Positions 15,079-54,628 of a stretch of DNA of 64,000 nt are shown here, piece after piece; the stretch's first letter is position 1, and each line of letters starts with the position of its first letter. Made by a program: the position numbers and the translations under genes. The DNA is taken from assembly GCF_024223415.1 (NCBI RefSeq), contig NZ_CP100500.1; one strand, 5' to 3'. Source of the DNA: Escherichia coli (GTDB taxonomy: Bacteria > Pseudomonadota > Gammaproteobacteria > Enterobacterales > Enterobacteriaceae). The notes beneath the pieces were generated by a model. It searched no databases, was not told where the DNA came from, and was given only the letters and a program-made list of their open reading frames with translations.

Positions 15079-15097
15079 TAGACAGGAGACAGTCACA

Positions 15098-32126: not shown

Positions 32127-32128
32127 GA

Positions 32129-38693: not shown

Positions 38694-38755
38694 TAAGTGG
38701 TTAACTAACGATTTCCAGTGAGCCTGCTCAGGTTGTATTGCCGGAAAGACTGCGA

Positions 38756-41533
38756 TTAATAGCTTAATGACCCGGTTATAATGGCGATCGCGTATTTGTG
38801 GCCAAAGTTGATCACGTTTCTGCCCTTTGTTTTTTTATCTGGCCCCTGGAGCATTTTTACCGGGAAACGTGCCCCCATCCAGCGAGGGTATTGCTCGTTT
38901 TCGTAAAAAACGGCACTGTTTTCACGGATAAAGAAATCAAGAGTAATCTTCAATAAATTACGCCATTCCGCTAATTGCTTATCGGGATCGGGTAATAATG
39001 TCTTCCAGTCCTGCGGGCAGGTTGTAACTTTATCAATAAATGGATAGTGAATGGCTACCAGACCCAGACTTTCGAGGGTCCAGGCATTTTTAGGGCGGCG
39101 ACCAAACTCGCTGTATAAACAAAAATCTGCAAACTGTTGTTTAGTAAGATCAAGCCCAGACAATTCTTTAAAACTGCCTCTCATTCTATCGGCAAGGTCC
39201 ACACTGCCAACCAGCTGTTCAGACAGCGTTTGCCATGACATGGTTTTCTTCTGCTGATTGCCAGAGTTAACCTGAAGTATTTGCATCGCTTCAGCATGCT
39301 CCGGGCTTAAGGAACTCACCATCGGCTCAATAATTTTAAGTGACTGAATGTCCGCCGGGCTAAGCTCCTCATTCGCAGCCATCGCTTTTTTCAGCGCGTC
39401 GATGGAATTTTTTAAAGGGAGGACAGAAAACTGGCTAATAACTTTCTCTAACAGTGCACAGTGTGCCGGGCTGAGTTTTGCTGAAGGCTCTGTAATATTT
39501 GCCAGCTCCTGGTAACAAAGAGCTCGCAACGTCGCTTTATCGGCATCCTGCTGTAAGCGGGCTGAAATGCGAGCGGTACCCTGACGCGAATCCGTAAAGG
39601 TGAGCAAGCGTCGACCATTAAACGGTCCTAACTGCTCTTCTCTTGTTTGCGGTAATGGAGAAAACTCCAGCAGAGTAGGAATAATTTCATTTAAAAAAAA
39701 GGGCGCGCCGAGCCGAAGCGGACGGAATAAAGGATTATTTTTCCGTTGAGTGTCACCACAGCAAACACAAGCAAAGGAGTTATTGCGCCCCTCACCTCGA
39801 GATTCCGGTCTTAACAGGTTTATTTCATAGTGCTTTTGCGCTTCACTATCAATTTTCCCCGCCGTCGTTTCTTCCAGTGAAATGATATATTTTTCACCAT
39901 CGCTCGCAATCAGACGATCAAATTGAGAGTTATTGTCTAATTCGTCGTTGTCTTCATCTTCAGAATAAACATCTACATCAAGAGCAAACTCATCCACTTC
40001 GGCAGCGGCTGGTTGCGCTACCAACCAGTTCGTTCCATCACCGCGCATCTCCTCTTTGGCAGACAAATAAGCTGAACCACACCCGGAGCAACGTAAAACT
40101 TCAAATACCGGCGCTCCACAGTCACAATATTGGCGCTGCTCAAACCATACCTGACCAAATGGCCAGTCACTCTGATTTAATTCATGTGCTTTATGTGAGC
40201 ATTGTTTGTTTGAACATGCCCATAGACCCGCCAGTGTTCTGATAAACCCATGCATACGTAATGGCGTAAAAGCCAGTTCACCTTCTCGCGATCTTGCCAT
40301 TAGATCGAGGAGTTGCAGTAGCTCACGGTGATTAATATCTGGCCAGGTTCTTCTGGCAACATTGAGCAACTCACTCAAACGTACTGCCTGCCGTCCGGGA
40401 TGAGTTAACGCCTGACGCAATTGCTGGGCCACACGGTAATGACAAAGCTGTTGGTAAAGATCCTGAGGGCTCAGGGATTTAAGAGAAGTTAAAGATGTGG
40501 GGTATTCATGACGAATCAGCGACTCCGATACCCGCGGTATTTGTCGATAACCGCGAACCACTTTGACATCACGTTCTGTAACGCCCGCGAGATCAGCGAC
40601 AAATTTAGCAAGCTCCTTATTACCTTCAGGAGAGTCTTCACCAATAGTGGCAGAGGTCGCGATAATCTGCACAGGTTTATCTGTGCCGGGTCCAACATTG
40701 AAAGCCTGCATAACACGACGTAAAAGCAGCGCTAACTCAGCAGCCTGAGAACCAATATAACTATGGGCTTCATCCAGGACGATATACTTTAACATCCCCT
40801 GAGACTTTTCGATGATTGGGGCATCTTTACGACGAATCAGCATATATTCCAGCATGGTGGTATTCGTCACCATGATGGAAGGTGGTGCTTCATAAATGGC
40901 TTCCCGACTCAAAGCTTGTTCAGGTACTTTCAACTGATCTTCCTGAACTTCGTATTTGGTATGCCGGGTTTCGCCATTATATAGCGCGAAGCGTATTTTC
41001 CCCTTAAATCCGCGCGTCCATTCGCGAAGCCGCTCCTGTTGGCTGTTAATTAATGCATTTAACGGATACAAGAAAATAGCTTGTGTCCCTGTTAGTGACT
41101 GGCGGGTCGATTTTTGCTGACGAATAAGATCTTCCAGAACCGGTACCATAAAGCATTCTGTTTTCCCGGATCCCGTACCGCTGCTCACTAACAAGGATTT
41201 TTTGTCTTCCAGAATCGTTCGCCACGCAGTAAGTTGATGACGAAATGGCACTGGCGCTTTGCTCAATGCATCAACCAGCGGGCTGGAGATCAGCTTGTCC
41301 CGCAAATCCTCCATTGTTTCATCCGCAGGCATCCAGCCGAATGTACTTTCGAATACCGGGTCTGCAAGCAGTGACCCCTCCTGACCGGGAGGCTGAAAAT
41401 ATTGTGATTCCAGATAATGAGTCAACGACTTGCTCCGCAATGCCAACTGACTTACCACCGACCTCACCGCACGCTGATGAAGCTGATTTAGAAGTGGCGC
41501 ATAATGCAGTTGCTGAACGTCCATCAATGACAT
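38756..41533 (-). CDS. N-terminal segment (925 aa) of a DruE-like giant helicase; ends 2 codons... stop shortly after an A7 tract
   Basis: Motif I VSSGTGSGKTECFMVPVL, motif II VLDEAHSYIG, internal Cys clusters as in the 2113-aa paralog. It is in a different frame from the downstream 1160-aa ORF by exactly one nucleotide. Confidence 0.7.
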   Translation of the reverse strand: MSLMDVQQLHYAPLLNQLHQRAVRSVVSQLALRSKSLTHYLESQYFQPPGQEGSLLADPVFESTFGWMPADETMEDLRDKLISSPLVDALSKAPVPFRHQLTAWRTILEDKKSLLVSSGTGSGKTECFMVPVLEDLIRQQKSTRQSLTGTQAIFLYPLNALINSQQERLREWTRGFKGKIRFALYNGETRHTKYEVQEDQLKVPEQALSREAIYEAPPSIMVTNTTMLEYMLIRRKDAPIIEKSQGMLKYIVLDEAHSYIGSQAAELALLLRRVMQAFNVGPGTDKPVQIIATSATIGEDSPEGNKELAKFVADLAGVTERDVKVVRGYRQIPRVSESLIRHEYPTSLTSLKSLSPQDLYQQLCHYRVAQQLRQALTHPGRQAVRLSELLNVARRTWPDINHRELLQLLDLMARSREGELAFTPLRMHGFIRTLAGLWACSNKQCSHKAHELNQSDWPFGQVWFEQRQYCDCGAPVFEVLRCSGCGSAYLSAKEEMRGDGTNWLVAQPAAAEVDEFALDVDVYSEDEDNDELDNNSQFDRLIASDGEKYIISLEETTAGKIDSEAQKHYEINLLRPESRGEGRNNSFACVCCGDTQRKNNPLFRPLRLGAPFFLNEIIPTLLEFSPLPQTREEQLGPFNGRRLLTFTDSRQGTARISARLQQDADKATLRALCYQELANITEPSAKLSPAHCALLEKVISQFSVLPLKNSIDALKKAMAANEELSPADIQSLKIIEPMVSSLSPEHAEAMQILQVNSGNQQKKTMSWQTLSEQLVGSVDLADRMRGSFKELSGLDLTKQQFADFCLYSEFGRRPKNAWTLESLGLVAIHYPFIDKVTTCPQDWKTLLPDPDKQLAEWRNLLKITLDFFIRENSAVFYENEQYPRWMGARFPVKMLQGPDKKTKGRNVINFGHKYAIAIITGSLSY

Positions 41534-44500
41534 ACTCCTGCTTGTTCAAAATAATATTGATAGATTACACCTAATTGCTGTGGGGCTTGCTGATAGTGAA
41601 ATTCAAAAAGCGCAGACAGTTGATGTATCAGGTTATTATCTTTTTGGGTTAACAGCGCTGCGACTAACATCAAATTAAAACGTTTTTCAAGCCGTGAGTG
41701 ATATTTATCTTCAATCCAAAGCTTATTAAAAACAGATTTTAACTCTGGAGTAATAGCACTAGACCAAAGTTCTTTAGGGAAGATACTGATACGCCCAAAG
41801 CTGTCGGGGTTCCTTAATAGCATCTGTTTAGCTTCATTAAACTGCTCACGACTAACAGTTGGCAATACATCACAACCGGTTGGTAGGCTCTCACTATATG
41901 TAAGTAACATATTCGCAATCGGAGCCAGCCGACGATCGATATGTGCACGATGGTTCATAAAAGCAATAAAGGGTTGCAATATATGTAATGCTAATGTTTT
42001 ATCGTTAATCTGTTTCTCCAGATAAGTCCAACATTTTTGGAAAACATCTTTCCAGATTGAAACGGGAATCCATCCCCATGAAAAGGGTAATTCTTCCTGT
42101 ATATCATAAATCGTATCGCTATCACCAGAAAGACATGATGATATTAACAATTGAACAACCACGCGGTAATTACTCGAAATACCTCTGAACAAGTCCAGAT
42201 CCAGCAAGGATAAGCCATTATTCATTTTGTATTTCTTAATATACTCTGTTAATAAACAGCAATAATTTTGCAATGGGTTGTTATCTATTTCAAAAATTAG
42301 CTCATTAAAATTTTTTTTGCGCTGTTCTGGGTCTGCTTCGCATAGAGCATTTAGTAATAAATCATTTGTCTGCAATACAGGTAGCATCCATTTAATTACT
42401 GGTGCAATGCGAGCTGTACCATCAAGTTTTCCCACAATTAACCATGGACTATCCTGAACATTCAGAGCTGAAAGATCATAAGCAAACTCATCTTTTTTTA
42501 ACAATGATATGTGTAAGCCAGGATTCTTAAGAGAAATAGCATCAACAACCAGTTCGTCTATTCTATTTGCAGGAAAAACAACAGAATTTTTTATATCAAC
42601 CAGTAACCCTTGATCGTGTTCAATAAAACTACCATCGTAGCGTTTAATATTGAGTGTTGCTTTATCCTTTCCAAATCTGTCAGAGTAAAAATCAACACAT
42701 AATGTACTATTGCTGTTCCATGCACATGCCAGCATAGCATTTAGCAAATTATAGTTCTCATAAAGTGAAATTTGTTGTAATTTGTCATTGCGTCCTGATA
42801 AAAGAGGAAGGTCGGCATGTAAATAGCGGAATTTTTCAGCTACTGGATTTTCATCCAATAACTCGATATTAAGATATCCTCTTCCAGCACATGATATGGT
42901 TAATAACTCAGCATCTATTCCATGCAAATGTGCTATAGATGCCACACCATCAAAATGAACAGAACCATCATTAGTTACAAATCGGCCACCGCTAACCGGC
43001 TTAGGTAATAATAGTTTAAGATTAGAACCATCTTTCCAGGAGACCCGTAAATCAACGGTATTTTCCAGCATCAGCGATGAATTATAATAAATAGCACACT
43101 CGTTTTGTGAATAATCGGACTTAAGTGTTACTTTTTCATTGTTTAAATATTTATCAATTCTAGTATCCGTTATACCAGAAAGCATAATAATGCCTTGCTG
43201 AGCACTCTCAGGTATAATATTAATATCGAAGTCTGCTGGTAAAACTACAACTTTACCGCTAAATAAAACCTCATCATTAACTATTCGCCGGACTTCTATC
43301 TGTCCTTTTGGCATTTCTGATGCGACAGAATACCAGGCATTGTTACCTGAACGAATGGAACGCCAAAAAAGTTCTTTCTCCGGTACAATGCCATATTGCA
43401 GATCCTTTTTCCAACCGATCTTCGGCCAGGCTCGATGGACAGGATAATCCGATTTAACCAGTTCAACTTCTGTCGATTTAATATAATATTCAATCGCAGA
43501 ATCATAAAGTTGCTGGGTGCGAATTGTACAAACTGCACCATCATGTAAAACAACGCTAAATACTCCACTTATTTTAGTTAAGCTGCGTTCACTGTTTTTC
43601 AGCAACCTTGGGATATCAAACTCACCTTCTCCACTAATATCTAAATGGCTATTTTTCGGTAGCGAAATAAACAGAGCATTTAGCCTGGAACTCACAGACC
43701 CCATACCAACAAGTTTTAGCTGCGATTCACTCTCATTCATCGCTTCAAAAACCCAGGGAAGTTCTTCAGTAAGTTCATAACCGCCTTTTGGAATTGTGTG
43801 ACCTAACAGAATTGGACCTTCATGAAGCGACAATGAGATTTCGGCCATTGCATCTGCACCAGAGAGTTTTTGCATCGCAATAGGTAATAACTCGACCCGC
43901 CAATCTTGCTGCTCATAACGGCTTAGCATTGCCAACCTTGCCCCGCCATTTTTCCATTTTCCTGAAATGATGAGTCGGGTCTGCTCCGGCTGAATATGGC
44001 ATTCAAACAAAGAGGTTAACTGTTCTGTACGCATTGTGGCCGGGAATCGGAACCGGGCATCGCAATACCAACTGTCATCAACATCGACCCAGATTCTTTC
44101 AACCTGAAGACTACTTGCACTGCGTATTTCAGAAGATTGAGATAGTAATCGCCTTACAATCTCTGCAGCATTCGCTTCGGGGAGAACGAGTGGAAGTTTA
44201 AGATGCCAGTCTGGAGAGAGCTTACGTAATGCAGAAACGGGATCACTGCTTTGAGGAGGATGCTCACTAAGTAATCGGCAGAGAGTCTCGCAGAATTCAC
44301 CGGCTATTTCATAGACCAGTTCGTTTTGCATTGTGACAGGAATCGTATCGCCTAATTCTTGTGCAATTTTAGCGGCAGGATATTGAGATGATTGCCCACG
44401 AAGCGCCTGATATATCCTTCTGAAATAGGTAATCAAATAACCGCTCTCATTTTCAATCATGCGGATAGGCAAACCACCTTCACAAGCCAGTGTATGCAGA

Positions 44501-44883
44501 TAACCCGAAGCTTGTCCCAGGTTTCTTATCTTTCTTTTCCAGTAGCGAATGCCATCATTAACCAGCTTCTGTCGATGAACATACGGAACTTTCCAGTTAA
44601 TAGAATCTAAAATTGTGTCCCATTTAGGGTGTCCGACCGTATGAGTCCGGCGGATAAACTCTGCGGCATATATGCTAAATAGAACATCGCTATAGGAAAT
44701 GAATATCGTTCTTGGATAACTACGGGGGGCATATGTACGCAGTAGTTCTGCCAAACTTTCGTACTCTGTATCAGTACAACGGTAAGCATATAACGCCCGT
44801 CCATCAGCTCCGGATAATGAACGGCGACTAAAAAACATGTTAAGCCATTGCAAAAGTGGGTTAACTGGAGTTTTCACAAGCAA
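41524..44883 (-). CDS. 1119-aa protein of unknown function (DruH-like partner of the giant helicase)
   Basis: Large ORF with no motif recognisable by eye. Its stop overlaps the start of the 925-aa helicase ORF by ~10 nt, implying co-translation. Position and size fit the partner gene of Druantia type III. Confidence 0.5.
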   Translation of the reverse strand: MLVKTPVNPLLQWLNMFFSRRSLSGADGRALYAYRCTDTEYESLAELLRTYAPRSYPRTIFISYSDVLFSIYAAEFIRRTHTVGHPKWDTILDSINWKVPYVHRQKLVNDGIRYWKRKIRNLGQASGYLHTLACEGGLPIRMIENESGYLITYFRRIYQALRGQSSQYPAAKIAQELGDTIPVTMQNELVYEIAGEFCETLCRLLSEHPPQSSDPVSALRKLSPDWHLKLPLVLPEANAAEIVRRLLSQSSEIRSASSLQVERIWVDVDDSWYCDARFRFPATMRTEQLTSLFECHIQPEQTRLIISGKWKNGGARLAMLSRYEQQDWRVELLPIAMQKLSGADAMAEISLSLHEGPILLGHTIPKGGYELTEELPWVFEAMNESESQLKLVGMGSVSSRLNALFISLPKNSHLDISGEGEFDIPRLLKNSERSLTKISGVFSVVLHDGAVCTIRTQQLYDSAIEYYIKSTEVELVKSDYPVHRAWPKIGWKKDLQYGIVPEKELFWRSIRSGNNAWYSVASEMPKGQIEVRRIVNDEVLFSGKVVVLPADFDINIIPESAQQGIIMLSGITDTRIDKYLNNEKVTLKSDYSQNECAIYYNSSLMLENTVDLRVSWKDGSNLKLLLPKPVSGGRFVTNDGSVHFDGVASIAHLHGIDAELLTISCAGRGYLNIELLDENPVAEKFRYLHADLPLLSGRNDKLQQISLYENYNLLNAMLACAWNSNSTLCVDFYSDRFGKDKATLNIKRYDGSFIEHDQGLLVDIKNSVVFPANRIDELVVDAISLKNPGLHISLLKKDEFAYDLSALNVQDSPWLIVGKLDGTARIAPVIKWMLPVLQTNDLLLNALCEADPEQRKKNFNELIFEIDNNPLQNYCCLLTEYIKKYKMNNGLSLLDLDLFRGISSNYRVVVQLLISSCLSGDSDTIYDIQEELPFSWGWIPVSIWKDVFQKCWTYLEKQINDKTLALHILQPFIAFMNHRAHIDRRLAPIANMLLTYSESLPTGCDVLPTVSREQFNEAKQMLLRNPDSFGRISIFPKELWSSAITPELKSVFNKLWIEDKYHSRLEKRFNLMLVAALLTQKDNNLIHQLSALFEFHYQQAPQQLGVIYQYYFEQAGVCH

Positions 44884-45094
44884 CCTGCCTTCCTTTGATA
44901 CAATTCGTAACAGGTTACTATCATCATAAAAAAGCTCAACCCGATGAACTCGCTAAAAATGAGACAAATCATTTATATCTCGAAAAAACTTGTTACAATC
45001 ATGAGCGCTACACCGAACTTAACCATATAAATTATGTGTGTTTTGTTTATTTTTTAAACGATTACAACTATCCATTATTTACACAGGTATCAAA

Positions 45095-46747
45095 ATGTTA
45101 GCGCAGCTTTTTGAGCAGTTGTTTCAATCGATAGACTCTACACTGATCACCAATATTTTCATCTGGGCTGTTATATTCGTATTTTTATCAGCGTGGTGGT
45201 GTGACAAAAAAAATATACATAGTAAGTTTAGAGAATATGCTCCAACCTTAATGGGGGCATTAGGTATTCTGGGTACTTTCATTGGTATTATTATTGGTTT
45301 ACTCAATTTTAATACCGAAAGTATTGATACCAGCATCCCCGTATTATTAGGTGGCCTAAAAACAGCATTCATTACAAGCATTGTAGGTATGTTTTTTGCC
45401 ATTTTATTTAATGGAATGGATGCTTTCTTTTTTGCCAATAAACGAAGTGCGTTAGCAGAAAATAACCCTGAATCTGTTACACCTGAACATATCTATCATG
45501 AATTAAAAGAGCAGAACCAGACTCTGACTAAATTAGTCTCGGGTATTAACGGTGATAGTGAAGGTTCTCTTATTGCTCAAATAAAATTACTACGTACTGA
45601 GATTAGCGATTCCTCGCAGGCACAATTAGCTAATCACACTCATTTCAGTAATAAGCTTTGGGAACAACTTGAACAATTTGCAGATCTAATGGCAAAAGGT
45701 GCTACAGAACAAATTATTGATGCTTTGCGACAAGTCATTATTGATTTTAATCAAAATTTAACTGAACAGTTTGGTGAAAACTTTAAAGCTCTTGATGCCT
45801 CTGTAAAAAAACTTGTTGAGTGGCAGGGAAATTATAAAACGCAAATTGAGCAGATGTCAGAACAATATCAACAAAGTGTCGAGTCCCTGGTTGAAACAAA
45901 AACTGCGGTTGCAGGGATTTGGGAAGAATGTAAAGAAATTCCTCTGGCTATGTCTGAACTGCGTGAAGTGCTTCAGGTGAACCAACATCAAATCAGCGAA
46001 CTCTCCCGCCATTTAGAAACCTTTGTCGCCATCCGCGATAAAGCTACAACCGTATTACCTGAAATACAGAACAAAATGGCTGAAGTGGGTGAACTGCTGA
46101 AATCCGGAGCTGCAAATGTTAGTGCATCTCTTGAGCAAACCAGCCAGCAAATACTTCTTAATGCAGATTCAATGCGCGTTGCCCTGGATGAAGGTACCGA
46201 AGGATTCAGACAATCGGTTACCCAAACACAACAAGCATTTGCCTCGATGGCACATGATGTCAGCAATTCCTCCGAAACCTTAACCAGCACGTTAGGTGAA
46301 ACAATTACTGAAATGAAACAAAGTGGTGAAGAATTCCTGAAATCACTAGAGTCGCACTCGAAAGAATTGCATAGAAATATGGAACAAAATACGACGAATG
46401 TGATTGATATGTTCAGTAAGACTGGTGAAAAGATTAACCATCAACTATCCAGTAATGCCGATAATATGTTTGATTCAATCCAGACATCATTTGATAAGGC
46501 AAGTGCAGGGCTGACTTCTCAAGTCAGAGAATCAATTGAAAAATTTGCTCTATCCATCAACGAGCAGTTACATGCTTTTGAGCAAGCAACTGAACGTGAA
46601 ATGAACCGTGAAATCCAATCATTAGGTAATGCTCTGCTTTCAATCAGCAAAGGTTTTGTCGGTAACTATGAAAAACTTATTAAAGATTACCAAATAGTTA
46701 TGGGGCAGTTACAAACATTAATTTCTGCTAATAAACATCGCGGGTAA
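45095..46747 (+). CDS. zorA: Zorya ZorA-like (MotA/ExbB-like membrane domain with long coiled-coil tail)
   Basis: N-terminal TM helices (…LMGALGILGTFIGIIIGLLNF…, …FITSIVGMFFAILFNG…) then ~400 aa of heptad-rich low-complexity sequence. The start is taken at ATG 45095 (AGG RBS); the ORF track uses an upstream GTG at 45038. Confidence 0.75.
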   Translation: MLAQLFEQLFQSIDSTLITNIFIWAVIFVFLSAWWCDKKNIHSKFREYAPTLMGALGILGTFIGIIIGLLNFNTESIDTSIPVLLGGLKTAFITSIVGMFFAILFNGMDAFFFANKRSALAENNPESVTPEHIYHELKEQNQTLTKLVSGINGDSEGSLIAQIKLLRTEISDSSQAQLANHTHFSNKLWEQLEQFADLMAKGATEQIIDALRQVIIDFNQNLTEQFGENFKALDASVKKLVEWQGNYKTQIEQMSEQYQQSVESLVETKTAVAGIWEECKEIPLAMSELREVLQVNQHQISELSRHLETFVAIRDKATTVLPEIQNKMAEVGELLKSGAANVSASLEQTSQQILLNADSMRVALDEGTEGFRQSVTQTQQAFASMAHDVSNSSETLTSTLGETITEMKQSGEEFLKSLESHSKELHRNMEQNTTNVIDMFSKTGEKINHQLSSNADNMFDSIQTSFDKASAGLTSQVRESIEKFALSINEQLHAFEQATEREMNREIQSLGNALLSISKGFVGNYEKLIKDYQIVMGQLQTLISANKHRG

Positions 46748-46753
46748 TCGATC

Positions 46754-47461
46754 ATGGATAAGATTATAGGGAAACAATTACCTAAAAAAGATCAAGATAA
46801 TGAACATTGGGTATCCATGTCAGACCTAATGGCAGGGCTGATGATGGTTTTTATGTTCATATCTATTGCTTATATGCACTACGTACGTATTGAAAAAGAA
46901 AAAATTAAAGAAGTTGCCGTAGCCTACGAGAATGCTCAGTTACAGCTTTATAATGCTCTGGATATTGAGTTTGCAAAGGATTTACAAGACTGGGATGCAG
47001 AGATCGATAAACAGACTCTGGAGGTTCGATTTAAATCACCGGATGTTTTATTTGGCTTAGGAAGCACAGAGCTAAAACCAAAGTTTAAACTCATTCTTGA
47101 CGACTTCTTTCCTCGCTACCTAAAAGTTCTAGATAATTATCAGGAACATATTACTGAAGTCCGCATTGAAGGTCACACAAGTACTGACTGGACAGGAACA
47201 ACGAATCCTGATATTGCTTATTTTAATAATATGGCACTATCGCAAGGTCGTACACGTGCAGTATTACAATACGTTTATGACATAAAAAATATCGCGACAC
47301 ACCAACAATGGGTTAAAAGTAAATTTGCCGCAGTAGGTTATTCATCTGCACATCCCATTCTTGATAAAACCGGCAAGGAGGATCCTAATCGCTCTCGTCG
47401 TGTCACCTTCAAAGTTGTAACAAATGCCGAGTTGCAGATTAGAAAGATTATTCAGGAGTAA
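46754..47461 (+). CDS. zorB: Zorya ZorB-like (MotB-like membrane anchor with OmpA-type peptidoglycan-binding domain)
   Basis: N-terminal TM (…LMAGLMMVFMFISIAYM…) and OmpA-like motif …RIEGHTSTDW…NMALSQGRTRAV…NRSRRVTFKV. Confidence 0.75.
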   Translation: MDKIIGKQLPKKDQDNEHWVSMSDLMAGLMMVFMFISIAYMHYVRIEKEKIKEVAVAYENAQLQLYNALDIEFAKDLQDWDAEIDKQTLEVRFKSPDVLFGLGSTELKPKFKLILDDFFPRYLKVLDNYQEHITEVRIEGHTSTDWTGTTNPDIAYFNNMALSQGRTRAVLQYVYDIKNIATHQQWVKSKFAAVGYSSAHPILDKTGKEDPNRSRRVTFKVVTNAELQIRKIIQE

Positions 47462-47464
47462 GAG

Positions 47465-48568
47465 ATGAAATTATCTATCGACCTTTCAGAACTTATTCAA
47501 TTAGGGAAGAAAATGTTACCAGAAGGAGTCGATTTTTTTCTGGATGAATCCCCTATTGACTTTGATCCTATAGATATTGAGTTATCCACGGGTAAAGAAG
47601 TTAGTATCGAAGATCTTGACCCTGGTAGCGGGCTTATCTCTTATCATGGCCGCCAGGTTCTTTTATATATTCGGGACCATTCAGGGCGTTATGATGCGGC
47701 TATCGTAGATGGCGAAAAAGGAAAACGTTTTCATATTGCCTGGTGCAGAACTCTTGATGAAATGCGCCATAAAAATCGATTTGAAAGGTATCATGCAACT
47801 AACCGCATAGATGGTTTATTCGAAATTGATGATGGTTCAGGTCGGAGCCAGGATGTTGATTTACGGGTATGTATGAATTGCCTCGAACGACTTAATTATA
47901 AAGGAAGTATTGATAAACAACGAAAAAGAGAGATTTTTAAATCATTCTCATTAAATGAGTTTTTTTCAGATTATAGTACCTGTTTTCGTCATATGCCTAA
48001 GGGTATCTATGACAAAACAAATAGTGGGTATGTCGAAAACTGGAAGGAAATATCTAAAGAAATACGAGAAAAGGCCAATTATGTTTGTAATGATTGTGGC
48101 GTGAATTTATCAACCGCCAAAAACTTGTGCCATGTCCATCATAAAAATGGCATCAAATATGATAATCACCATGAAAACCTTCTTGTTCTGTGCAAGGATT
48201 GCCATCGAAAACAGCCCCTCCACGAAGGTATATTCGTTACCCAAGCTGAGATGGCTATCATTCAACGTTTACGTTCCCAACAAGGGCTATTAAAAGCAGA
48301 ATCCTGGAATAAAATATATGACCTGACTGATCCATCAGTGCATGGTGATATTAATATGATGCAACATAAAGGCTTTCAACCTCCTGTTCCTGGGTTAGAT
48401 CTTCAAAACTCAGAACATGAAATTATTGCAACCGTAGAAGCTGCATGGCCAGGCCTTAAAATTGCAGTTAACCTTACTCCCGCCGAAGTCGAAGGATGGA
48501 GAATATATACCGTGGGTGAGCTGGTTAAAGAAATACAAACCGGAGCCTTTACGCCAGCAACTTTGTAA
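47465..48568 (+). CDS. zorE: Zorya type II effector ZorE-like HNH endonuclease
   Basis: HNH motif CNDCGVNLSTAKNLCHVHHKNGIKYDNHHENLLVLCKDCH. It follows zorB by 3 nt. Confidence 0.7.
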   Translation: MKLSIDLSELIQLGKKMLPEGVDFFLDESPIDFDPIDIELSTGKEVSIEDLDPGSGLISYHGRQVLLYIRDHSGRYDAAIVDGEKGKRFHIAWCRTLDEMRHKNRFERYHATNRIDGLFEIDDGSGRSQDVDLRVCMNCLERLNYKGSIDKQRKREIFKSFSLNEFFSDYSTCFRHMPKGIYDKTNSGYVENWKEISKEIREKANYVCNDCGVNLSTAKNLCHVHHKNGIKYDNHHENLLVLCKDCHRKQPLHEGIFVTQAEMAIIQRLRSQQGLLKAESWNKIYDLTDPSVHGDINMMQHKGFQPPVPGLDLQNSEHEIIATVEAAWPGLKIAVNLTPAEVEGWRIYTVGELVKEIQTGAFTPATL

Positions 48569-48579
48569 ATTCTAACACT

Positions 48580-48603
48580 CCGTGAAAGTTAAGACTTTCA
48601 CGG
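48580..48603 (+). terminator. 10-bp perfect hairpin (ccgtgaaagt-taag-actttcacgg) after zorE
   Basis: Perfect stem-loop immediately downstream of the zorE stop. No clear U-run follows, so terminator function is uncertain. Confidence 0.35.
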
Positions 48604-48753
48604 AAGATAAATAAAACTTCCCTGATTTGTGACTCAAATTACAAAAGTAGTTTATGGCATAACTTGTCTATCTTTATGGTGTAATAGGTATAAAGGTATA
48701 TGCTATGGTTCGCCTCATACTTAAAACTTCCCTCATACGGGTGAAGGTTAAAG

Positions 48754-49032
48754 CTTTGTAGACAGGAGACAGTCACAATGAATAAAACAATAAATTGATG
48801 TCGCACGCGCCGATGGGCATGGCGGGTAATGTAACTTTTGTACACAACGGCAAGGCTTATGTTACTGGCGGTGTTAACCAGAACATCTTCAATGGCTATT
48901 TTGAAGATCTCAACGATGCTGGAGAATATTTAGCAGCTATAGACAAGATCAATGCCTATTATTTCGACAAAAAAGCAGAAGATTATTTCTTCAATAAGTT
49001 TTTGTTGTCTTTTGATCCCTCAACACAGCAAT
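48754..49032 (+). pseudogene. diverged nanM remnant (first ~37 bp of nanM fused to an internal ~240-bp nanM segment), preceded by a nanC-promoter-like GGTATA repeat at 48687-48700
   Basis: 48754-48790 matches 15079-15115 (gtagacaggagacagtcacaatgaataaaacaataa). 48791-49032 matches 15460-15700 at roughly 90 percent identity by eye. Same orientation as the intact nanM. Confidence 0.8.
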
Positions 49033-49107
49033 GGATCTTCACTTGCAGGCTTGAACAGCAGAAAATTTGCGAGCATGATCGCAATTATTTCACTGCCAGG
49101 GATATCA

Positions 49108-49980
49108 ATGGCTTCCAGTAAATCGCTACAGCAGGCAATTGCCAACATAAAAATCTGGCACAAGGGTGAACAGCGCGCGCCGCATAAGCCATTGTTATTG
49201 CTATACGTATTAGCGGGATACCTGAATGGACATCCACGCCTTTTCGATTATGGATCGGAAATCTACGAACCTCTGCACAGTTTACTGGAACGTTTTGGGC
49301 CACAGCGTTCACAGTACCGACCTGATATGCCGTTCTGGCGATTACAAGGCGACGGATTCTGGCAATTACACAATGCCGAGCTTTGCTCAACAGCAGGGAG
49401 CAGCCGACAACCGCCAGTGAAGGAACTGAACGAATACCACGTTGCAGGCGGTTTCGATGAACAGCACTACGCCCTGGTAACCGGCAATAAAAAACTCATC
49501 AATACTCTGGCGCAACAGATACTCGAAGCGCACTTCACCGAGAGTATTCAGGAAGAAATTGCTGACGAGCTGGGTTTTGATCTCCAGCAAATCCGTAAAC
49601 AGCGCGACCCGTTATTTCGCAAAAATGTATTACGCGCTTATAACTACCAGTGCGCGATATGTGGCTTTAATATGCGCCACGACGACACCACCGTCGCGCT
49701 GGAAGCGGCGCATATAAAATGGAAACAGCACGGCGGTCCTTGTGAAATTCCTAATGGCCTGGCGCTTTGCGCAATTCACCATAAAGCCTTTGATAAAGGA
49801 TCGATTGGCCTGGATGAAAATATGCGGGTACTGGTCTCGGATGCGGTAAACGGCGGAGGGATCGTTGAGAGATTATTCTGGGATTTTGACGGGAAAACTA
49901 TTGCGTTGCCGCAGGTGCGTAAAAATTACCCTTATGAGGGGTTTGTGGAGTGGCATCGGGAAGAGGTTTTTAGGGGGTGA
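49108..49980 (+). CDS. HNH endonuclease with unidentified N-terminal domain (candidate modification-dependent restriction enzyme)
   Basis: C-terminal HNH motif YQCAICGFNMRHDDTTVALEAAHIKWKQHGGPCEIPNGLALCAIHHKAFD. The start is taken at ATG 49108 (MASSKSLQQAIANIKIW) with AGGGA RBS, because the ORF-track start at 48952 lies in the nanM remnant. Confidence 0.6.
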   Translation: MASSKSLQQAIANIKIWHKGEQRAPHKPLLLLYVLAGYLNGHPRLFDYGSEIYEPLHSLLERFGPQRSQYRPDMPFWRLQGDGFWQLHNAELCSTAGSSRQPPVKELNEYHVAGGFDEQHYALVTGNKKLINTLAQQILEAHFTESIQEEIADELGFDLQQIRKQRDPLFRKNVLRAYNYQCAICGFNMRHDDTTVALEAAHIKWKQHGGPCEIPNGLALCAIHHKAFDKGSIGLDENMRVLVSDAVNGGGIVERLFWDFDGKTIALPQVRKNYPYEGFVEWHREEVFRG

Positions 49981-50024
49981 GGTTGATAACTATCGCAGTA
50001 TGTTCAATATTGCTGACATAATCA

Positions 50025-50204
50025 GTGCAGGATCTTGCCGCTAGTTTACAACTCGCCTTCGATAGCGGCGCAAAACGTGTTCTGTTGCCGATATCCTCGG
50101 CTATGGATATTCCAACAGTTCCGGCAGAGTTGTTTACCAAGTTTCAGGTAAGTTTTTACTCAGAACCGGTTGATGTGGTTTATAAGGCGCTGGATGTGAA
50201 TTAA
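50025..50204 (+). pseudogene. possible 3-prime remnant of a Lon-like protease gene (BrxL-like C-terminus)
   Basis: Short frame encoding …GAKRVLLPISSAMDIPTVPAELFTKFQVSFYSEPVDVVYKALDVN*, which resembles the extreme C-terminus of Lon-family proteases from memory. No upstream coding sequence remains. Confidence 0.3.
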
Positions 50205-50537
50205 CACATTCCTCAGCTTATTTACAAAAGGATTATTCCCATTTGATATAATATCAGTGCCAATTTACTTTTTTCAATGGAATATATCTCGGCTAAATAA
50301 CAATAAAACTTATCGCTAATTGATTAAATAAACAATTTTCTAATTCATTTCACCACCTTTGATATAGAAATTGATGGTGTTGTCGCTGCCATTGCTTATG
50401 GTGATGATAAAATCCACGTTTCTGGATCGTTGCGTAGAAAATCATCACTACCTTGATATTTTGATGCGATATGATCATACCGTTCCGTAGTACCAATTTC
50501 AATTTCAGGCTAAACCCCAACATTAAAAAAATTAGAG

Positions 50538-50579
50538 TTATTCACTGATTATATTATCAATAATATAATCAGTGAATAA
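50538..50579. repeat. 42-bp near-perfect AT-rich palindrome (20-bp arms, 2-nt centre)
   Basis: ttattcactgattatattat-ca-ataatataatcagtgaataa; all 20 arm positions pair. It lies ~25 bp downstream of the stop of the 682-aa minus-strand ORF. Confidence 0.8.
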
Positions 50580-50602
50580 CATGGACTATATAATAAATTG
50601 CT

Positions 50603-52651
50603 CTAATCATTTCCCTTACGAATATATGGGCCAAAAGCCCAAGAATCATAATAAGGGTGATGGACTAGTTTTTCATTAAATCGAACACTATAAGTTAATT
50701 TTTTTATATTTTTACGTACAGCATTAATACTGGGCAAAGAGGAAAGATAATCTATAAACTTATCGATAGTGATTTCCCCTTCGCAACACTCAAACCCATC
50801 AATGATATTTTTCGCCATTTTTCCATTTTCATTTGTTTGATATATCACTCCAGGTATTCGTTGAAAAAAACTAGATAATGCATATTTGTCCGCTACATAT
50901 GTATCATCCACATGATATTTCCCACCGAGCATAGTTGTAGTAACAATAAGCTTATACACACCTTTGGGTTGCCATGTTGATGGTAGTTCGAATTCTTTAA
51001 TGATCACATCAAGATGATTAAGATAATGTTCAGAAATTCGATTTATTTGTTGAAAATAAGAACGCATAAATTTATTATTATGATCATGTATTAATGAGCT
51101 ATCTCCAACGATGTTACACATTTGCTGATAGTATTTACCATAATATATTGGTTGACCATTTGATTTTAGTTCTGTAAAAATCAAACAATCATCCAGGAGA
51201 ATCACGCAATCGCACTGATAATTAGCATGAGCATCAATTGGAGAAGCTTTAATCCCCGCATCACGAACTTGTTTTATAAATTGTTGCTCATGAAATCGCC
51301 CTTTACTTGCTTGAGAAATTTTTTTGGAACCAAATAATGACATTAGAGAGCGAGTCACTGAGCTATTTGCTATTAATGCAGGCATTAAGCATAAACCGTC
51401 CATACAGGGAATAAATGGGCAATCATTAAGATCATGTGATTTTGAATTGAAGGTAAAATAATCTATCAGTTTTTTTGCTGCATCTGCTGCAATCCCCTTA
51501 CGTTGAAAGAATGATAACCAACTCTCACGGCTTTTTATGATCAGCCAGCGATCCAACTGTAGGGGTATAGGTTTTGTCGATGAAAATCTTTTGCTCATTT
51601 CTTCTTTAGATAACTCGACTAAACATTGATAAGCGTGCACCCAATTAAATAATGATATATTCCCATATTCTTCATGAAGGTCATCAGGAGACATATTTTC
51701 CAACTCGCTTAGATGAAATGAGCTAAAAACGCCATCAGAATTTAAGTAAGATGGCATATGATCCTTTACCCAACTATTTAGATGAAAATGTTTGTTACTA
51801 AATTCATGAACTTCGCTATATAGATGTGACGCTCTCATCATTAGTCTATTTCTTGCAATCTCATAATCTCGGTATAAACAAAAACTATCAACCTCAAGAG
51901 AGTAAATGTTATTATCCAATTTTGTAAATACTGCACTACTTAGTCTGAAAAAGTCTCTTACTCTGCTTAATGAGTCAAAAACATTCCACTCATTAAGGTA
52001 CCCTCCCATTGAAAGCAAGGTTTGTTTATTCACACAAGAAGTTAGTTTCAATGGCTCATGAGTCCGTAAATAAGAAAATATTCTTCCGGTGTAATTGGCT
52101 ACCTCATCAAATGCCCTATCGATAACTCGAAAATATTCGATATCAGGTTCAGCATGAATATTAATATTTTCAGAAACGATAAATAATGGAAAAATCCTCT
52201 TCATTTTTTTAGGATCATTGACCACAACCAAGGATGATAATGATGATAAAAACATCTCACAAAACATGATGAGATTAAGTATTAATGCATGTGATTTTTT
52301 TGTATTTTTACGCCAAATACCAGCACATTTTGTAGCCGCAAAGAAAGAATTATTTATATCATGCATAATTTTACATTGACTCTCGAACTCAGAAATTAGT
52401 TCAATGTTATCAGGAAATGAGTTTACTAGCTCATTAATACATTTTTTGAATGTATTGTTATACTCAACTTCAGTCTGAACTGAAAATCTATTATAATAGA
52501 TGGAAGATATTCTCAGCACATCCAAGGCGATATCTATACTAATATCATCTCTTTTTATGTACTCACAAAAAAAAGAACAAAACTGTTTCGGGTCGTTAGC
52601 AAGATTACTAATTCTAGTGGTATCATAAACTTTTTCCATTTTTCCATACAT
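50603..52651 (-). CDS. 682-aa hypothetical protein, very AT-rich, possible C-terminal PD-(D/E)xK-like patch
   Basis: Long uninterrupted ORF in the most AT-rich stretch of the window, adjacent to leuX. No recognisable P-loop. C-terminal segment …YQCDCVILLDDCLIFTELK… has the hydrophobic-D…E-x-K spacing of PD-(D/E)xK nucleases (weak, by eye). Confidence 0.6.
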   Translation of the reverse strand: MYGKMEKVYDTTRISNLANDPKQFCSFFCEYIKRDDISIDIALDVLRISSIYYNRFSVQTEVEYNNTFKKCINELVNSFPDNIELISEFESQCKIMHDINNSFFAATKCAGIWRKNTKKSHALILNLIMFCEMFLSSLSSLVVVNDPKKMKRIFPLFIVSENINIHAEPDIEYFRVIDRAFDEVANYTGRIFSYLRTHEPLKLTSCVNKQTLLSMGGYLNEWNVFDSLSRVRDFFRLSSAVFTKLDNNIYSLEVDSFCLYRDYEIARNRLMMRASHLYSEVHEFSNKHFHLNSWVKDHMPSYLNSDGVFSSFHLSELENMSPDDLHEEYGNISLFNWVHAYQCLVELSKEEMSKRFSSTKPIPLQLDRWLIIKSRESWLSFFQRKGIAADAAKKLIDYFTFNSKSHDLNDCPFIPCMDGLCLMPALIANSSVTRSLMSLFGSKKISQASKGRFHEQQFIKQVRDAGIKASPIDAHANYQCDCVILLDDCLIFTELKSNGQPIYYGKYYQQMCNIVGDSSLIHDHNNKFMRSYFQQINRISEHYLNHLDVIIKEFELPSTWQPKGVYKLIVTTTMLGGKYHVDDTYVADKYALSSFFQRIPGVIYQTNENGKMAKNIIDGFECCEGEITIDKFIDYLSSLPSINAVRKNIKKLTYSVRFNEKLVHHPYYDSWAFGPYIRKGND

Positions 52652-53328
52652 CCTATTGTCTAAATTACTATAAAACTAGCCACTTAACTAATAATTATAA
52701 ATTTCATCTTTTACACCTTGCATTTTTATAACCAATGAAATCTACGACAAGCAACTGATGGATAATCCGATATTGGTCGCATTTAATGGCATGGTAGCAA
52801 AGTTTTCATCACATACCTCCTTTGCACCAGAATAAACGCCAGAGATCTGAAATTGCGAGTACACTACAGAAATTGTACTGCCGGTCCCATCAGCATAAAA
52901 CCATAGTTACACAGGTAATCATCATTATTCGCCAAGATAATAAATATTATTCGGTAGAATAGCGTTCTCAGGTGGTCAGTATAATTGTCTTCAACAAGAT
53001 GTCTGCGCATCTCGTCTGCTAGCCCTACATAACTGCTCTCGACCGAAACTATTTATTGAATGTTCACCAAGGTGGGCGTGGAGACAAAATGACGTCTTTT
53101 GATATTAGCTACCTGAGCCACATGGTCAAAACGTTCAAGTAGCATAGCGAAACCACCCTGCCCACGTAATGTGGACGATGCAGCTTCCAGCCAGAGCAAA
53201 CTTGGGACCATCGACTACAAAATGAAGAATACTGAACTGCTTTTCTGGCAGGCCTATATACTGCACGGATATGGGTGATTTCAGACACAAAAAAAGCCGC
53301 CCTTGAGCGACTCGATTTGCATACGGTG

Positions 53329-53413
53329 TGGTGCCGAAGGCCGGACTCGAACCGGCACGTATTTCTACGGTTGATTTTGAATCAACTGCGTCTACCGATT
53401 TCGCCACTTCGGC
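53329..53413 (-). tRNA. leuX: tRNA-Leu (anticodon CAA)
   Basis: Reverse complement reads GCCGAAGTGGCGAAATCGGTAGACGCAGTTGATTCAAAATCAACCGTAGAAATACGTGCCGGTTCGAGTCCGGCCTTCGGCACCA, with anticodon loop TTCAAAA and a T-run downstream. Confidence 0.95.
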
Positions 53414-53608
53414 ACTGAAGAGGTATGCGGAAAACGTTGTGGATTATACCTGTCGCACGCCACCATGCAAGCGCCAGCTTGCTCGCACCTCGCTAAGTGC
53501 TGAAATTTTCAGCATTGCATACAGCGATGTGTAACCTTTGTCACACTCCAGGCACCCCGCCCTGCCATGCTCTACACTTCCCAGACAACACCAGAGAAGG
53601 ACCAAAAA

Positions 53609-54628
53609 ATGTCGATGATAAAAAGCTATGCCGCAAAAGAAGCAGGCGGCGAACTGGAAGTTTATGAGTACGCTCCCGGTGAGCTGAAGCCACAAGATGT
53701 TGAAGTGCAGGTGGATTACTGCGGGATCTGCCATTCCGATCTGTCGATGATCGATAACGAATGGGGATTTTCACAATATCCGCTGGTTGCCGGGCATGAG
53801 GTGATTGGGCGCGTGGTGGCACTCGGGAGCGCCGCGCAGGATAAAGGTTTGCAGGTCGGTCAGCGTGTCGGGATTGGCTGGACGGCGCGTAGCTGTGGTC
53901 ACTGCGACGCCTGTATTAGCGGTAATCAGATCAACTGCGAGCAAGGTGCGGTGCCGACGATTATGAATCGCGGTGGCTTTGCCGAGAAGTTGCGTGCGGA
54001 CTGGCAATGGGTGATTCCACTGCCAGAAAATATTGATATCGAGTCCGCCGGGCCGCTGTTGTGCGGCGGTATCACGGTCTTTAAACCACTGTTGATGCAC
54101 CATATCACTGCTACCAGCCGCGTTGGGGTAATTGGTATTGGCGGGCTGGGGCATATCGCTATAAAACTTCTGCACGCAATGGGATGCGAGGTGACAGCCT
54201 TTAGTTCTAATCCGGCGAAAGAGCAGGAAGTGCTGGCGATGGGTGCCGATAAAGTGGTGAATAGCCGCGATCCGCAGGCACTGAAAGCACTGGCGGGGCA
54301 GTTTGATCTCATTATCAACACCGTCAACGTCAGCCTCGACTGGCAGCCCTATTTTGAGGCGCTGACCTATGGCGGTAATTTCCATACGGTCGGTGCGGTT
54401 CTCACGCCGCTGTCTGTTCCGGCCTTTACGTTAATTGCGGGCGATCGCAGCGTCTCTGGTTCTGCTACCGGCACGCCTTATGAGTTGCGTAAGCTGATGC
54501 GCTTTGCCGCCCGCAGCAAGGTTGCGCCGACTACCGAACTGTTCCCGATGTCGAAAATTAACGACGCCATCCAGCATGTGCGCGACGGTAAGGCGCGTTA
54601 CCGCGTGGTGTTGAAAGCCGATTTTTGA
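53609..54628 (+). CDS. ahr: NADPH-dependent aldehyde reductase (zinc-type alcohol dehydrogenase)
   Basis: The start is taken at [21 protein letters not shown]. Zn-ADH motifs GHEVIGRV and CGHCDAC are present, followed by a GxGxxG NAD(P)-binding motif. Confidence 0.9.

What the first reader, a model, noticed from the sequence alone, without database searches (positions are those of the whole stretch)
45038..48568. Zorya type II module (zorA-zorB-zorE)
A MotA-like membrane protein with a long coiled-coil tail, a MotB-like protein with an OmpA-type peptidoglycan-binding domain, and an HNH nuclease sit in a tight plus-strand operon. This matches the described Zorya type II. The module is visibly more AT-rich than the flanking core, consistent with horizontal origin. 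It is known biology, but it confirms this is a multi-system defence island.
Basis: partly seen in the sequence, partly recalled or inferred. Interest (0 to 1): 0.4.

Follow-up and report, generated by a model that had tools for sequence, protein, structure and literature searches.

The report
Zorya type II anti-phage operon
This is an intact copy of the already characterised E. coli Zorya type II phage-defence operon (zorA2-zorB2-zorE), over 99% identical to the laboratory reference system, so it is real but ordinary.

Summary
The finding is confirmed. Three co-directional plus-strand genes sit 6 and 3 nt apart: zorA2 (45095-46747, 550 aa), zorB2 (46754-47461, 235 aa) and zorE (47465-48568, 367 aa). 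The real start is the ATG at 45095.

All three proteins exceed the curated NCBIfam equivalog cut-offs for type II Zorya and are the top PADLOC hits. The operon is 99.45% identical in DNA to the experimentally studied E. coli ATCC 8739 system. Every residue shown by mutagenesis to be needed for defence is present. Neither refuting condition is met: ZorA matches ZorA rather than flagellar, Tol or Exb stators, and ZorE has an intact HNH site and an HNH fold.

The operon is AT-rich (38% GC against about 50% in the core). It lies in the published ARMADA II / Druantia III / Zorya II array next to tRNA-Leu (leuX).

Two minor extras came up:
- The ZorE C-terminal domain has a Vsr-like PD-(D/E)xK fold and is homologous to the C-terminus of the ARMADA helicase ArmC in the same island.
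- The neighbouring druE is split by a 1-nt change in a T-run.

Verdict: already known, low interest.

The parts
44884..45094 (.). Divergent intergenic region between druH (minus strand) and zorA2 (plus strand); presumed to hold the zorABE promoter.
   Evidence: This is 211 nt between the druH start and the zorA ATG. Sigma-70-like matches lie at 44895-44924 and 44972-44999, but the number of such matches in the region equals the shuffle expectation, so no promoter is demonstrated. A weak Shine-Dalgarno (CAGG) lies about 7 nt upstream of the ATG at 45095.
45095..46747 (+). zorA2: 550-aa inner-membrane protein. It has a MotA/ExbB-like ion-channel core (three TM segments, residues 12-114, nt 45128-45436) and a long helical cytoplasmic tail (residues 126-550, nt 45470-46744).
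   Evidence: NCBIfam ZorA2 equivalog 1137 bits, aligned 1-550/550. PADLOC ZorA2 1000 bits. Pfam MotA_ExbB is above its cut-off. Best PDB relative is 8VVI type II ZorA, E 1.7e-37. Hydropathy and a proline-poor tail. Identical to NCTC10444 ZorA2 and 99.27% to ATCC 8739.
46754..47461 (+). zorB2: 235-aa MotB-like protein. It has one TM helix (residues 20-44) carrying the ion-binding Asp24 (codon 46823-46825) and an OmpA-type peptidoglycan-binding domain (residues 99-213, nt 47048-47392).
   Evidence: NCBIfam ZorB2 equivalog 444 bits against a 400 cut-off. PADLOC ZorB2 346 bits. Pfam OmpA 34.7 bits against 27.2. PDB 8VVI ZorB, E 1.5e-52. D24, H141, S143, R215 and R230 are all present. One substitution against ATCC 8739, L65I.
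47465..48568 (+). zorE: 367-aa effector nuclease with three parts. (1) N-terminal Zn-binding domain, residues 1-190, nt 47465-48034. (2) HNH nuclease core, residues ~205-255, nt 48077-48229. (3) C-terminal Vsr-like PD-(D/E)xK-fold domain, residues ~279-360, nt 48299-48544.
48579..48604 (+). Perfect 11-bp stem with a 4-nt loop, 10 nt after the zorE stop codon; the likely 3' end hairpin of the operon.
   Evidence: Inverted repeat, 100% complementary. RNA fold -16 kcal/mol, z -4.8 against 200 shuffles. No U-tract follows, and the terminator scan did not call it, so its function as a terminator is inferred.

Best explanation
This is a complete, apparently functional type II Zorya anti-phage system, a near-identical allele of the E. 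coli ATCC 8739, ECOR19 and EDL933 systems.

The mechanism below is taken from published work on those near-identical systems. It is inferred, not shown, for this copy.
1. Five ZorA2 and two ZorB2 subunits form an inner-membrane, proton-driven 5:2 rotary motor.
2. The ZorB OmpA-like domains bind peptidoglycan and are proposed to sense envelope perturbation when a phage injects its DNA.
3. This opens the ion path through ZorB Asp24.
4. ZorA then rotates around the anchored ZorB, and the signal passes down the long pentameric helical tail of ZorA into the cytoplasm.
5. The tail recruits and concentrates ZorE, an Mg/Mn-dependent HNH nickase, at the infection site.
6. ZorE nicks phage and host DNA and stops phage propagation, giving population-level protection, mainly against T7-like podoviruses.

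What is shown here is limited to gene content, order and spacing, family membership, the intact state of all functionally tested residues, and predicted folds.
For: Family membership: NCBIfam equivalogs are above cut-off for all three proteins and PADLOC gives them as top hits.

Identity: 99.45% DNA identity with no gaps to ATCC 8739 zorABE (L005), and 99.2-99.6% protein identity. That system was shown to defend against T7 and CS16F and to need each component, ZorB D24, the PG-binding residues and the ZorA tail (PMC11890865).

Residues: all tested residues are conserved at the same numbering. These are ZorB D24, H141, S143, R215, R230 and ZorE H90, E99, Y109, Y189, H226, K231, N234, H235, N238, L239, H247, H253 (residues).

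Effector: ZorE nickase activity is published. The ZorE model has an HNH fold.

Motor: ZorA and ZorB are closest to the solved type II ZorA5B2 motor 8VVI.

Operon and distribution: tight spacing. The operon is present in 590 of 5426 complete E. coli genomes and is named zorA2/zorB2/zorE by RefSeq. The same nine-gene array was shown to be active in native EDL933 (10.1101/2025.09.22.677730).
Against: Nothing contradicts the assignment.

Caveats:
- No expression or phenotype data exist for this copy.
- Eight amino-acid differences from ATCC 8739 are untested. One is ZorE K283, where the three compared E. coli strains have E and 35 of 60 homologues have D or E.
- Pfam alone does not call HNH above threshold in ZorE (HNH_3 E 0.0028).
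- The sensing step and the way ZorA's tail activates ZorE remain hypotheses in the literature.
- No promoter signal above chance was found.
Confidence: 0.93

Rival explanations
1. The first two genes are an ordinary ion-driven stator pair (flagellar MotAB, TolQR or ExbBD paralogue) that happens to sit next to an unrelated HNH nuclease, not a Zorya system.
For: Pfam sees only generic MotA_ExbB and OmpA domains. ZorB gives weak NCBIfam hits to MotB, MotS and MotD models.
Against: The weak stator hits score 27-40 bits against cut-offs of 250-300, whereas ZorB2 scores 444 against 400. ZorA has no MotA, TolQ or ExbB hit in NCBIfam or the PDB, and its best solved relative is type II ZorA. A 425-aa cytoplasmic tail is absent from stators. 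The three genes co-occur as a unit in 529 E. coli genomes.
Confidence: 0.01
2. The operon is a decayed or silent remnant: it is intact in sequence but no longer expressed or functional in this strain, which sits in an immobilised island whose neighbour druE is already broken.
For: druE next door is split by a frameshift. No promoter signal above chance was found upstream of zorA. ZorE carries an unusual K283.
Against: All three ORFs are full length, with no frameshift or stop. All 17 functionally tested residues are intact. There are only 19 mismatches in 3474 nt against a functional reference. The native-context operon is active in EDL933 and in ATCC 8739 constructs with the native promoter. 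Position 283 is variable across homologues.
Confidence: 0.05
3. In this island ZorE works mainly as a shared nuclease for the neighbouring YprA-helicase systems (Druantia III, perhaps ARMADA II), independently of ZorAB. The Zorya motor would then be secondary.
For: A ZorAB-independent requirement for ZorE in Druantia-led defence against phage Bas37 has been published (PMC13192584). The ZorE C-terminal domain is homologous to the terminal domain of ArmC in the same island.
Against: The same work shows that standalone Zorya II defence and T3 synergy need ZorAB. In this window druE is frameshifted, so the Druantia-led route is probably unavailable if the frameshift is real. ZorA and ZorB are under evident conservation, 99-100% identical across strains.
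Confidence: 0.05

Closest known systems
Zorya type II of E. coli ATCC 8739 (reference system of Doron et al. 2018, cited from my own knowledge; Mariano et al. 2025, PMC11890865)
   Same: Same three genes, order, spacing and lengths (550, 235 and 367 aa). DNA identity is 99.45%, and protein identity is 99.27%, 99.57% and 99.18%. All mutagenesis-defined residues are identical. The same druH-druE-armABCD neighbours and the same nanM fragment follow zorE.
   Different: Eight amino-acid substitutions, written window to ATCC 8739: ZorA Q220E, S470G, I507M, T541A; ZorB L65I; ZorE L7I, K283E, T366K. The island here abuts tRNA-Leu/ahr, whereas in ATCC 8739 it lies next to cadC and the literature places it at tRNA-Phe. 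druE is intact in ATCC 8739 and split here.
OI-172 / ECOR19 ARMADA II-Druantia III-Zorya II array (EDL933, ECOR19, NCTC 12900; preprints 10.1101/2025.09.22.677730, PMC13192584, 10.1101/2025.09.15.676423)
   Same: The nine-gene array armDCBA-druEH / zorABE has the same orientation, and zorABE is divergent from druHE. It sits beside tRNA-Leu and the ahr gene, as described for the tRNA-Leu islands. armB is the variable gene (the paper).
   Different: druE carries a 1-nt deletion in a T-run, seen in only 1 of 523 complete genomes. This window has no second mobile element between the array and tRNA-Leu, unlike NCTC10444.
Sulfuricurvum kujiense type II ZorA5B2 motor (PDB 8VVI)
   Same: It is the best solved-structure relative of both ZorA (E 1.7e-37) and ZorB (E 1.5e-52). 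It has the same 5:2 motor architecture, conserved ZorB Asp and PG-binding dimer.
   Different: It is a distant sequence relative. Its ZorA is 378 aa against 550 aa here, so the E. coli tail is about 170 residues longer.
Zorya type I (ZorABCD; solved E. coli type I ZorAB entries such as 8QYH, and Shewanella 8VVN)
   Same: The ZorAB motor principle is shared, and there are weak profile hits to ZorA1 and ZorB1 models.
   Different: Type I effectors are ZorC and ZorD (an Mrr-like nuclease/helicase), not ZorE. ZorA1 is larger. The ZorA1/ZorB1 models score far below the type II models here (48 against 1000 bits; 188 against 346 bits).
MotAB, ExbBD and TolQR ion-driven stators
   Same: They share the MotA_ExbB channel domain, a MotB-like TM helix with a conserved Asp, and an OmpA-like PG anchor.
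   Different: They have no long cytoplasmic tail and no linked nuclease. No significant family-level match was found.

Membership tests
Zorya type II (ZorA2-ZorB2-ZorE) | ZorA: a MotA/ExbB-type ion-channel membrane domain that matches ZorA type II models rather than stator models. | tested here: met
   NCBIfam ZorA2 equivalog 1137 bits against a 700 cut-off, aligned 1-550/550. PADLOC ZorA2 1000 bits. Pfam MotA_ExbB 28.3 bits against 22.9. PDB best hit is 8VVI ZorA, with no MotA, TolQ or ExbB chain.
Zorya type II (ZorA2-ZorB2-ZorE) | ZorA: a long helical cytoplasmic C-terminal tail, required for defence. | tested here: met
   A 425-aa tail follows the last TM segment. It has 3 Pro and is 60% E/Q/K/L/A/S/T. 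It gives weak helical-repeat Pfam hits (Apolipoprotein, ApoLp-III). The ZorA2 profiles cover it end to end. No structure was predicted for it here; the pentameric rod is from the literature.
Zorya type II (ZorA2-ZorB2-ZorE) | ZorB: an N-terminal TM helix with the ion-coupling Asp (D24 in E. coli numbering). | tested here: met
   D24 is present in WVSMSDLMAGL, and the TM segment spans residues 20-44. The D24N phenotype is published.
Zorya type II (ZorA2-ZorB2-ZorE) | ZorB: an OmpA-type peptidoglycan-binding domain with the residues needed for PG binding. | tested here: met
   Pfam OmpA 34.7 bits against 27.2. H141, S143, R215 and R230 are present. NCBIfam ZorB2 444 bits against 400.
Zorya type II (ZorA2-ZorB2-ZorE) | ZorE: an HNH nuclease effector with an intact catalytic and zinc motif. 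| tested here: met
   [not shown]
Zorya type II (ZorA2-ZorB2-ZorE) | The three genes are adjacent and co-directional, in the order zorA-zorB-zorE. | tested here: met
   Gaps of 6 and 3 nt on the same strand. The same arrangement is annotated in other genomes.
Zorya type II (ZorA2-ZorB2-ZorE) | The system confers anti-phage protection. | not testable with these tools
   Shown only for alleles more than 99% identical (ATCC 8739, ECOR19, EDL933).
Zorya type I (ZorABCD) | Presence of ZorC and ZorD effector genes. | tested here: not met
   No ZorC or ZorD gene follows zorB; the third gene is ZorE. The only ZorD-profile hit is a weak helicase-domain match (E 3.8e-15) in ArmA.
Flagellar, Tol or Exb stators (MotAB, TolQR, ExbBD) | Family-level match to MotA/TolQ/ExbB and MotB/TolR/ExbD models. 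| tested here: not met
   ZorA has no NCBIfam hit to such models. ZorB hits to MotB, MotS and MotD reach only 27-40 bits against cut-offs of 264-312.

The most novel reading that the evidence does not exclude
The ZorE C-terminal domain was left unassigned to a nuclease family in the 2026 Druantia-Zorya preprint. Here it appears to be a Vsr-like PD-(D/E)xK-fold module that shares ancestry with the extreme C-terminal domain of ArmC, the ARMADA II YprA-type helicase encoded 20 kb away in the same island. If this shared module recognises a common DNA intermediate or serves as a common docking surface, it could be the physical basis for the reported ZorAB-independent recruitment of ZorE by YprA-helicase systems. 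It would also predict Zorya II-ARMADA II cross-talk. The canonical (D/E)xK is degenerate in this allele (G-L-K), so the domain may bind rather than cut.
Probability: 0.15. Interest if true: 0.45.

Novelty: already known. Interest (0 to 1): 0.1.

Why it matters
For the genome scan, this confirms that the leuX-adjacent region of the window is the well-described E. coli ARMADA II / Druantia III / Zorya II defence array, and it fixes the gene coordinates. It adds nothing new about Zorya itself. The system, its structure, its nickase effector and even this exact island have been published.

Two by-products have modest value. The first is a fold assignment and an intra-island homologue for the ZorE C-terminal domain, which could guide domain-swap experiments on inter-system synergy. 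The second is that this strain's druE is split at a homopolymer. If that split is real, Zorya II here operates without its published synergy partner.

Tried and rejected
- Pfam on whole ZorE and on its sub-regions gave only sub-threshold HNH hits (HNH_3 E 0.0028, HNH 0.16, HNH_2 0.29) and nothing for the N-terminal or C-terminal parts. The HNH call therefore needed motif conservation, PHROGs and fold evidence.
- A PDB sequence search with ZorE found nothing.
- The promoter scan found no more sigma-70-like sites than in shuffles, and no canonical terminator after zorE.
- Rfam found only the tRNA in 44000-54000.
- BLASTP of the ZorE CTD against the DruE C-terminus gave no similarity, so the CTD link is to ArmC only.
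- The upstream GTG at 45038 was considered as the zorA start and rejected on profile alignments and annotation.
- NCBIfam's ZorB2 model starts at residue 26, which would omit the essential D24. I rejected that shorter start in favour of the 235-aa form.
- EDL933 under accession NC_002655.2 is not in the collection. I located ATCC 8739 by walking the chromosome instead.
- The window is not RM12579, despite sharing the druE T7 allele: it is 99.16% identical to RM12579 against 99.965% to NCTC10444.
Full report
**Observation**

The window holds three consecutive plus-strand ORFs ending at 46747, 47461 and 48568. They are separated by 6 nt and 3 nt, read directly from the sequence.

Three lines of evidence place the real start at the ATG at 45095:
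- The PADLOC ZorA2 profile begins at residue 20 of that ORF.
- The NCBIfam ZorA2 model aligns 1-550/550 from 45095.
- RefSeq annotates the same 550-aa product in three other genomes.

A weak CAGG Shine-Dalgarno precedes that ATG. The corrected genes are:

| Gene | Coordinates | Length |
|---|---|---|
| zorA2 | 45095-46747 | 550 aa |
| zorB2 | 46754-47461 | 235 aa |
| zorE | 47465-48568 | 367 aa |

The operon is 38.3% GC, against about 50.5% in the core flanks. Low GC is shared with druH (39.5%) but not with druE or the ARMADA genes.

**Identity of the genes**

| Protein | PADLOC top hit | NCBIfam equivalog vs cut-off |
|---|---|---|
| ZorA2 | 1000 bits | 1137 vs 700 |
| ZorB2 | 346 bits | 444 vs 400 |
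| ZorE | 586 bits (ZorE2) | 695 vs 600 |

- Pfam confirms a MotA_ExbB channel domain in ZorA and an OmpA domain in ZorB, both above gathering scores.
- ZorA has three hydrophobic segments (residues 12-36, 48-74, 81-114), then a 425-aa proline-poor tail.
- ZorB has one TM helix (residues 20-44), and Asp24 lies within it.
- Among solved structures, ZorA and ZorB are closest to the S. kujiense type II ZorA5B2 motor 8VVI (E 1.7e-37 and 1.5e-52).
- No MotA, TolQ or ExbB chain matches ZorA at E <= 0.001.

**ZorE nuclease**

Pfam alone does not call HNH above threshold, and no solved structure matches by sequence. I therefore collected homologues and tested the fold.
- I found 140 homologues, 38-99% identical and nearly all 360-380 aa, and aligned 60 of them.
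- The HNH/zinc set C208, C211, H225, H226, N238, L239, C243 and C246 is invariant.
- An N-terminal His/Cys cluster (H90, C94, C136, C139) is also invariant.
- PHROGs HNH families match residues 185-263 (E down to 1e-9).
- An AlphaFold2 model built on the alignment is confident (pLDDT 89.6, pTM 0.85).

The second refuter is therefore not met either.

**Comparison with tested systems**

Megablast finds the operon in 590 of 5426 complete E. coli genomes. In 529 of them it is essentially full length, and RefSeq names the genes zorA2, zorB2 and zorE.

I located the ATCC 8739 locus and compared it directly.
- DNA is 99.45% identical, with 19 mismatches in 3474 nt and no gaps.
- ZorA is 99.27% identical (window to ATCC 8739: Q220E, S470G, I507M, T541A).
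- ZorB is 99.57% identical (L65I).
- ZorE is 99.18% identical (L7I, K283E, T366K).

The ATCC 8739 system was used by Mariano et al. 2025 (PMC11890865). They showed:
- a 5:2 ZorA:ZorB motor (solved for the S. kujiense and Shewanella homologues);
- a requirement for each component, ZorB D24, the PG-binding residues H141, S143, R215 and R230, and the ZorA tail;
- ZorE nickase activity.

Wu et al. 2026 (PMC13192584) mapped ZorE residues needed for defence in the ECOR19 system. All 5 ZorB and 12 ZorE residues are present at the same numbering here.

ZorE K283 is E in the three compared E. coli strains, but the position is variable across homologues.

**Mechanism**

The mechanism is inferred for this copy from those studies.
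1. ZorA5B2 sits in the inner membrane in a closed state.
2. The ZorB OmpA-like dimer engages peptidoglycan when phage injection perturbs the envelope.
3. Ion flow through the Asp24 site turns ZorA around ZorB.
4. The signal travels along the pentameric ZorA tail.
5. ZorE is recruited and concentrated, and nicks DNA.

The published phenotype is population-level protection, chiefly against Autographiviridae. The sensing trigger and the tail-to-ZorE coupling are still hypotheses in the literature.

**Context**

Upstream on the minus strand lie these genes:
- druH (41524-44883) and druE, together Druantia III;
- a four-gene set matching ArmA-D of ARMADA II (naming): a DrmD-like helicase (32129-34987), a DrmMI/type IIG-like methyltransferase (27195-32126), a YprA-like helicase (20854-27195) and a GajB-like UvrD helicase (18743-20857).

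Downstream lie these features:
- a nanM fragment;
- a phosphorothioate-DNA-binding HNH restriction endonuclease;
- an unassigned 682-aa ORF;
- tRNA-Leu(CAA), then a 353-aa ORF (53567-54628) that I take to be the ahr gene. I did not run it against any family library; its position beside tRNA-Leu matches the layout.

This is the published array of O-island 172 and the tRNA-Leu islands.

**By-products**

*ZorE C-terminal domain.* Residues ~279-360 are homologous to the last ~75 residues of ArmC.
- The PADLOC ZorE2 profile hits ArmC 2021-2096 at E 5.9e-9.
- BLASTP gives 33% identity, E 4e-9.
- hhalign of a 32-sequence CTD profile gives 97.4% probability, E 1.1e-11.
- The YprA preprint describes Vsr-type domains at the ArmC C-terminus. 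The Wu preprint could not assign the ZorE extension to a family.
- Conserved CTD residues are W281, D289, P307, W328 and W345 (invariant), E325 (D/E in 57 of 60) and K332 (K/R in 49 of 60).
- The residue two positions before K332 is acidic in only 20 of 60 homologues and is Gly here, so catalytic competence is doubtful.

*druE frameshift.* druE is split into 925-aa and 1160-aa ORFs by a T7 run, where other genomes have T8 (window 38830-38836). Only 1 of 523 complete genomes (RM12579, annotated 'frameshifted') shares T7. That strain is not the closest relative of the window. The cause is either a homopolymer sequencing error or recurrent slippage.

**Verdict**

This is a known system in a known island, in a near-identical allele. 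Interest is low.

Noticed in passing
window 35211-41533 (-), T-run at 38830-38836: druE (Druantia III helicase-nuclease, ~2104 aa when intact) is split into a 925-aa ORF and a 1160-aa ORF. The cause is a T7 run where NCTC10444 and 521 other complete E. coli genomes have T8. Only RM12579 shares T7, and RefSeq flags it 'frameshifted'. RM12579 is not the window's closest relative, so this is either a recurrent homopolymer sequencing error or recurrent slippage. If real, the published Druantia III-Zorya II synergy would be lost in this strain.
   Followed up: partly
[not shown]
   Followed up: yes
window 50603-52651 (-): A 682-aa ORF (RefSeq: a 678-aa 'hypothetical protein') lies between the restriction endonuclease and tRNA-Leu. 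Its GC is 33%, the lowest in the window. It has no hit in Pfam, PADLOC, NCBIfam, PHROGs or PDB sequences. It is an unassigned gene inside a defence island.
   Followed up: partly
window 48791-49035 and 15451-15695: A 245-bp fragment of nanM (N-acetylneuraminate epimerase) follows zorE and is 92.7% identical to part of a 404-aa ORF (14990-16204) at the other side of the island, presumably the full-length nanM (not annotated here). The same fragment travels with zorE in ATCC 8739, where the array lies next to cadC, a site the literature describes as tRNA-Phe-associated, and in RM12579. The conserved block shared with ATCC 8739 ends at window 49053. The fragment is a relic that marks the right edge of the mobile cargo and hints that the array once recombined with nanM at the leuX locus.
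   Followed up: partly
window 49108-49980 (+): A phosphorothioated-DNA-binding HNH restriction endonuclease (NCBIfam NF045808, 438 bits against a 180 cut-off). The mechanical ORF starts at 48952, but the profile and RefSeq place the start near 49108. It is a fourth defence function in the island.
   Followed up: partly
window 18743-34987 (-): A four-gene set matches ARMADA II armD-armC-armB-armA: a GajB-like UvrD helicase, a 2113-aa YprA-like helicase, a 1643-aa DrmMI/type IIG-like methyltransferase and a DrmD-like SNF2 helicase. Window 27.8-28.9 kb, within the 1643-aa methyltransferase gene (the armB counterpart), is only 74-78% identical to RM12579 and ATCC 8739, in line with the published armB variability. 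armA is intact here but frameshifted in NCTC10444 (indel at window 34386).
   Followed up: partly
window 48579-48604 (+): A perfect 11-bp stem with a 4-nt loop lies 10 nt after the zorE stop (-16 kcal/mol, z -4.8). No U-tract follows, so it is not a canonical intrinsic terminator.
   Followed up: yes
window 53329-53413 (-) and beyond: tRNA-Leu(CAA) (leuX) bounds the island directly. In NCTC10444 an extra CP4-like element (CbtA/YeeU toxin-antitoxin, RadC, antirestriction genes) lies beyond the point where homology with the window ends (window 53352). This fits the published model of successive insertions at this tRNA.
   Followed up: partly
window 46754-46828: The NCBIfam ZorB2 model (NF041787) starts at residue 26 of the 235-aa protein, so it does not cover the functionally essential Asp24. 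The 235-aa start is the correct one.
   Followed up: yes
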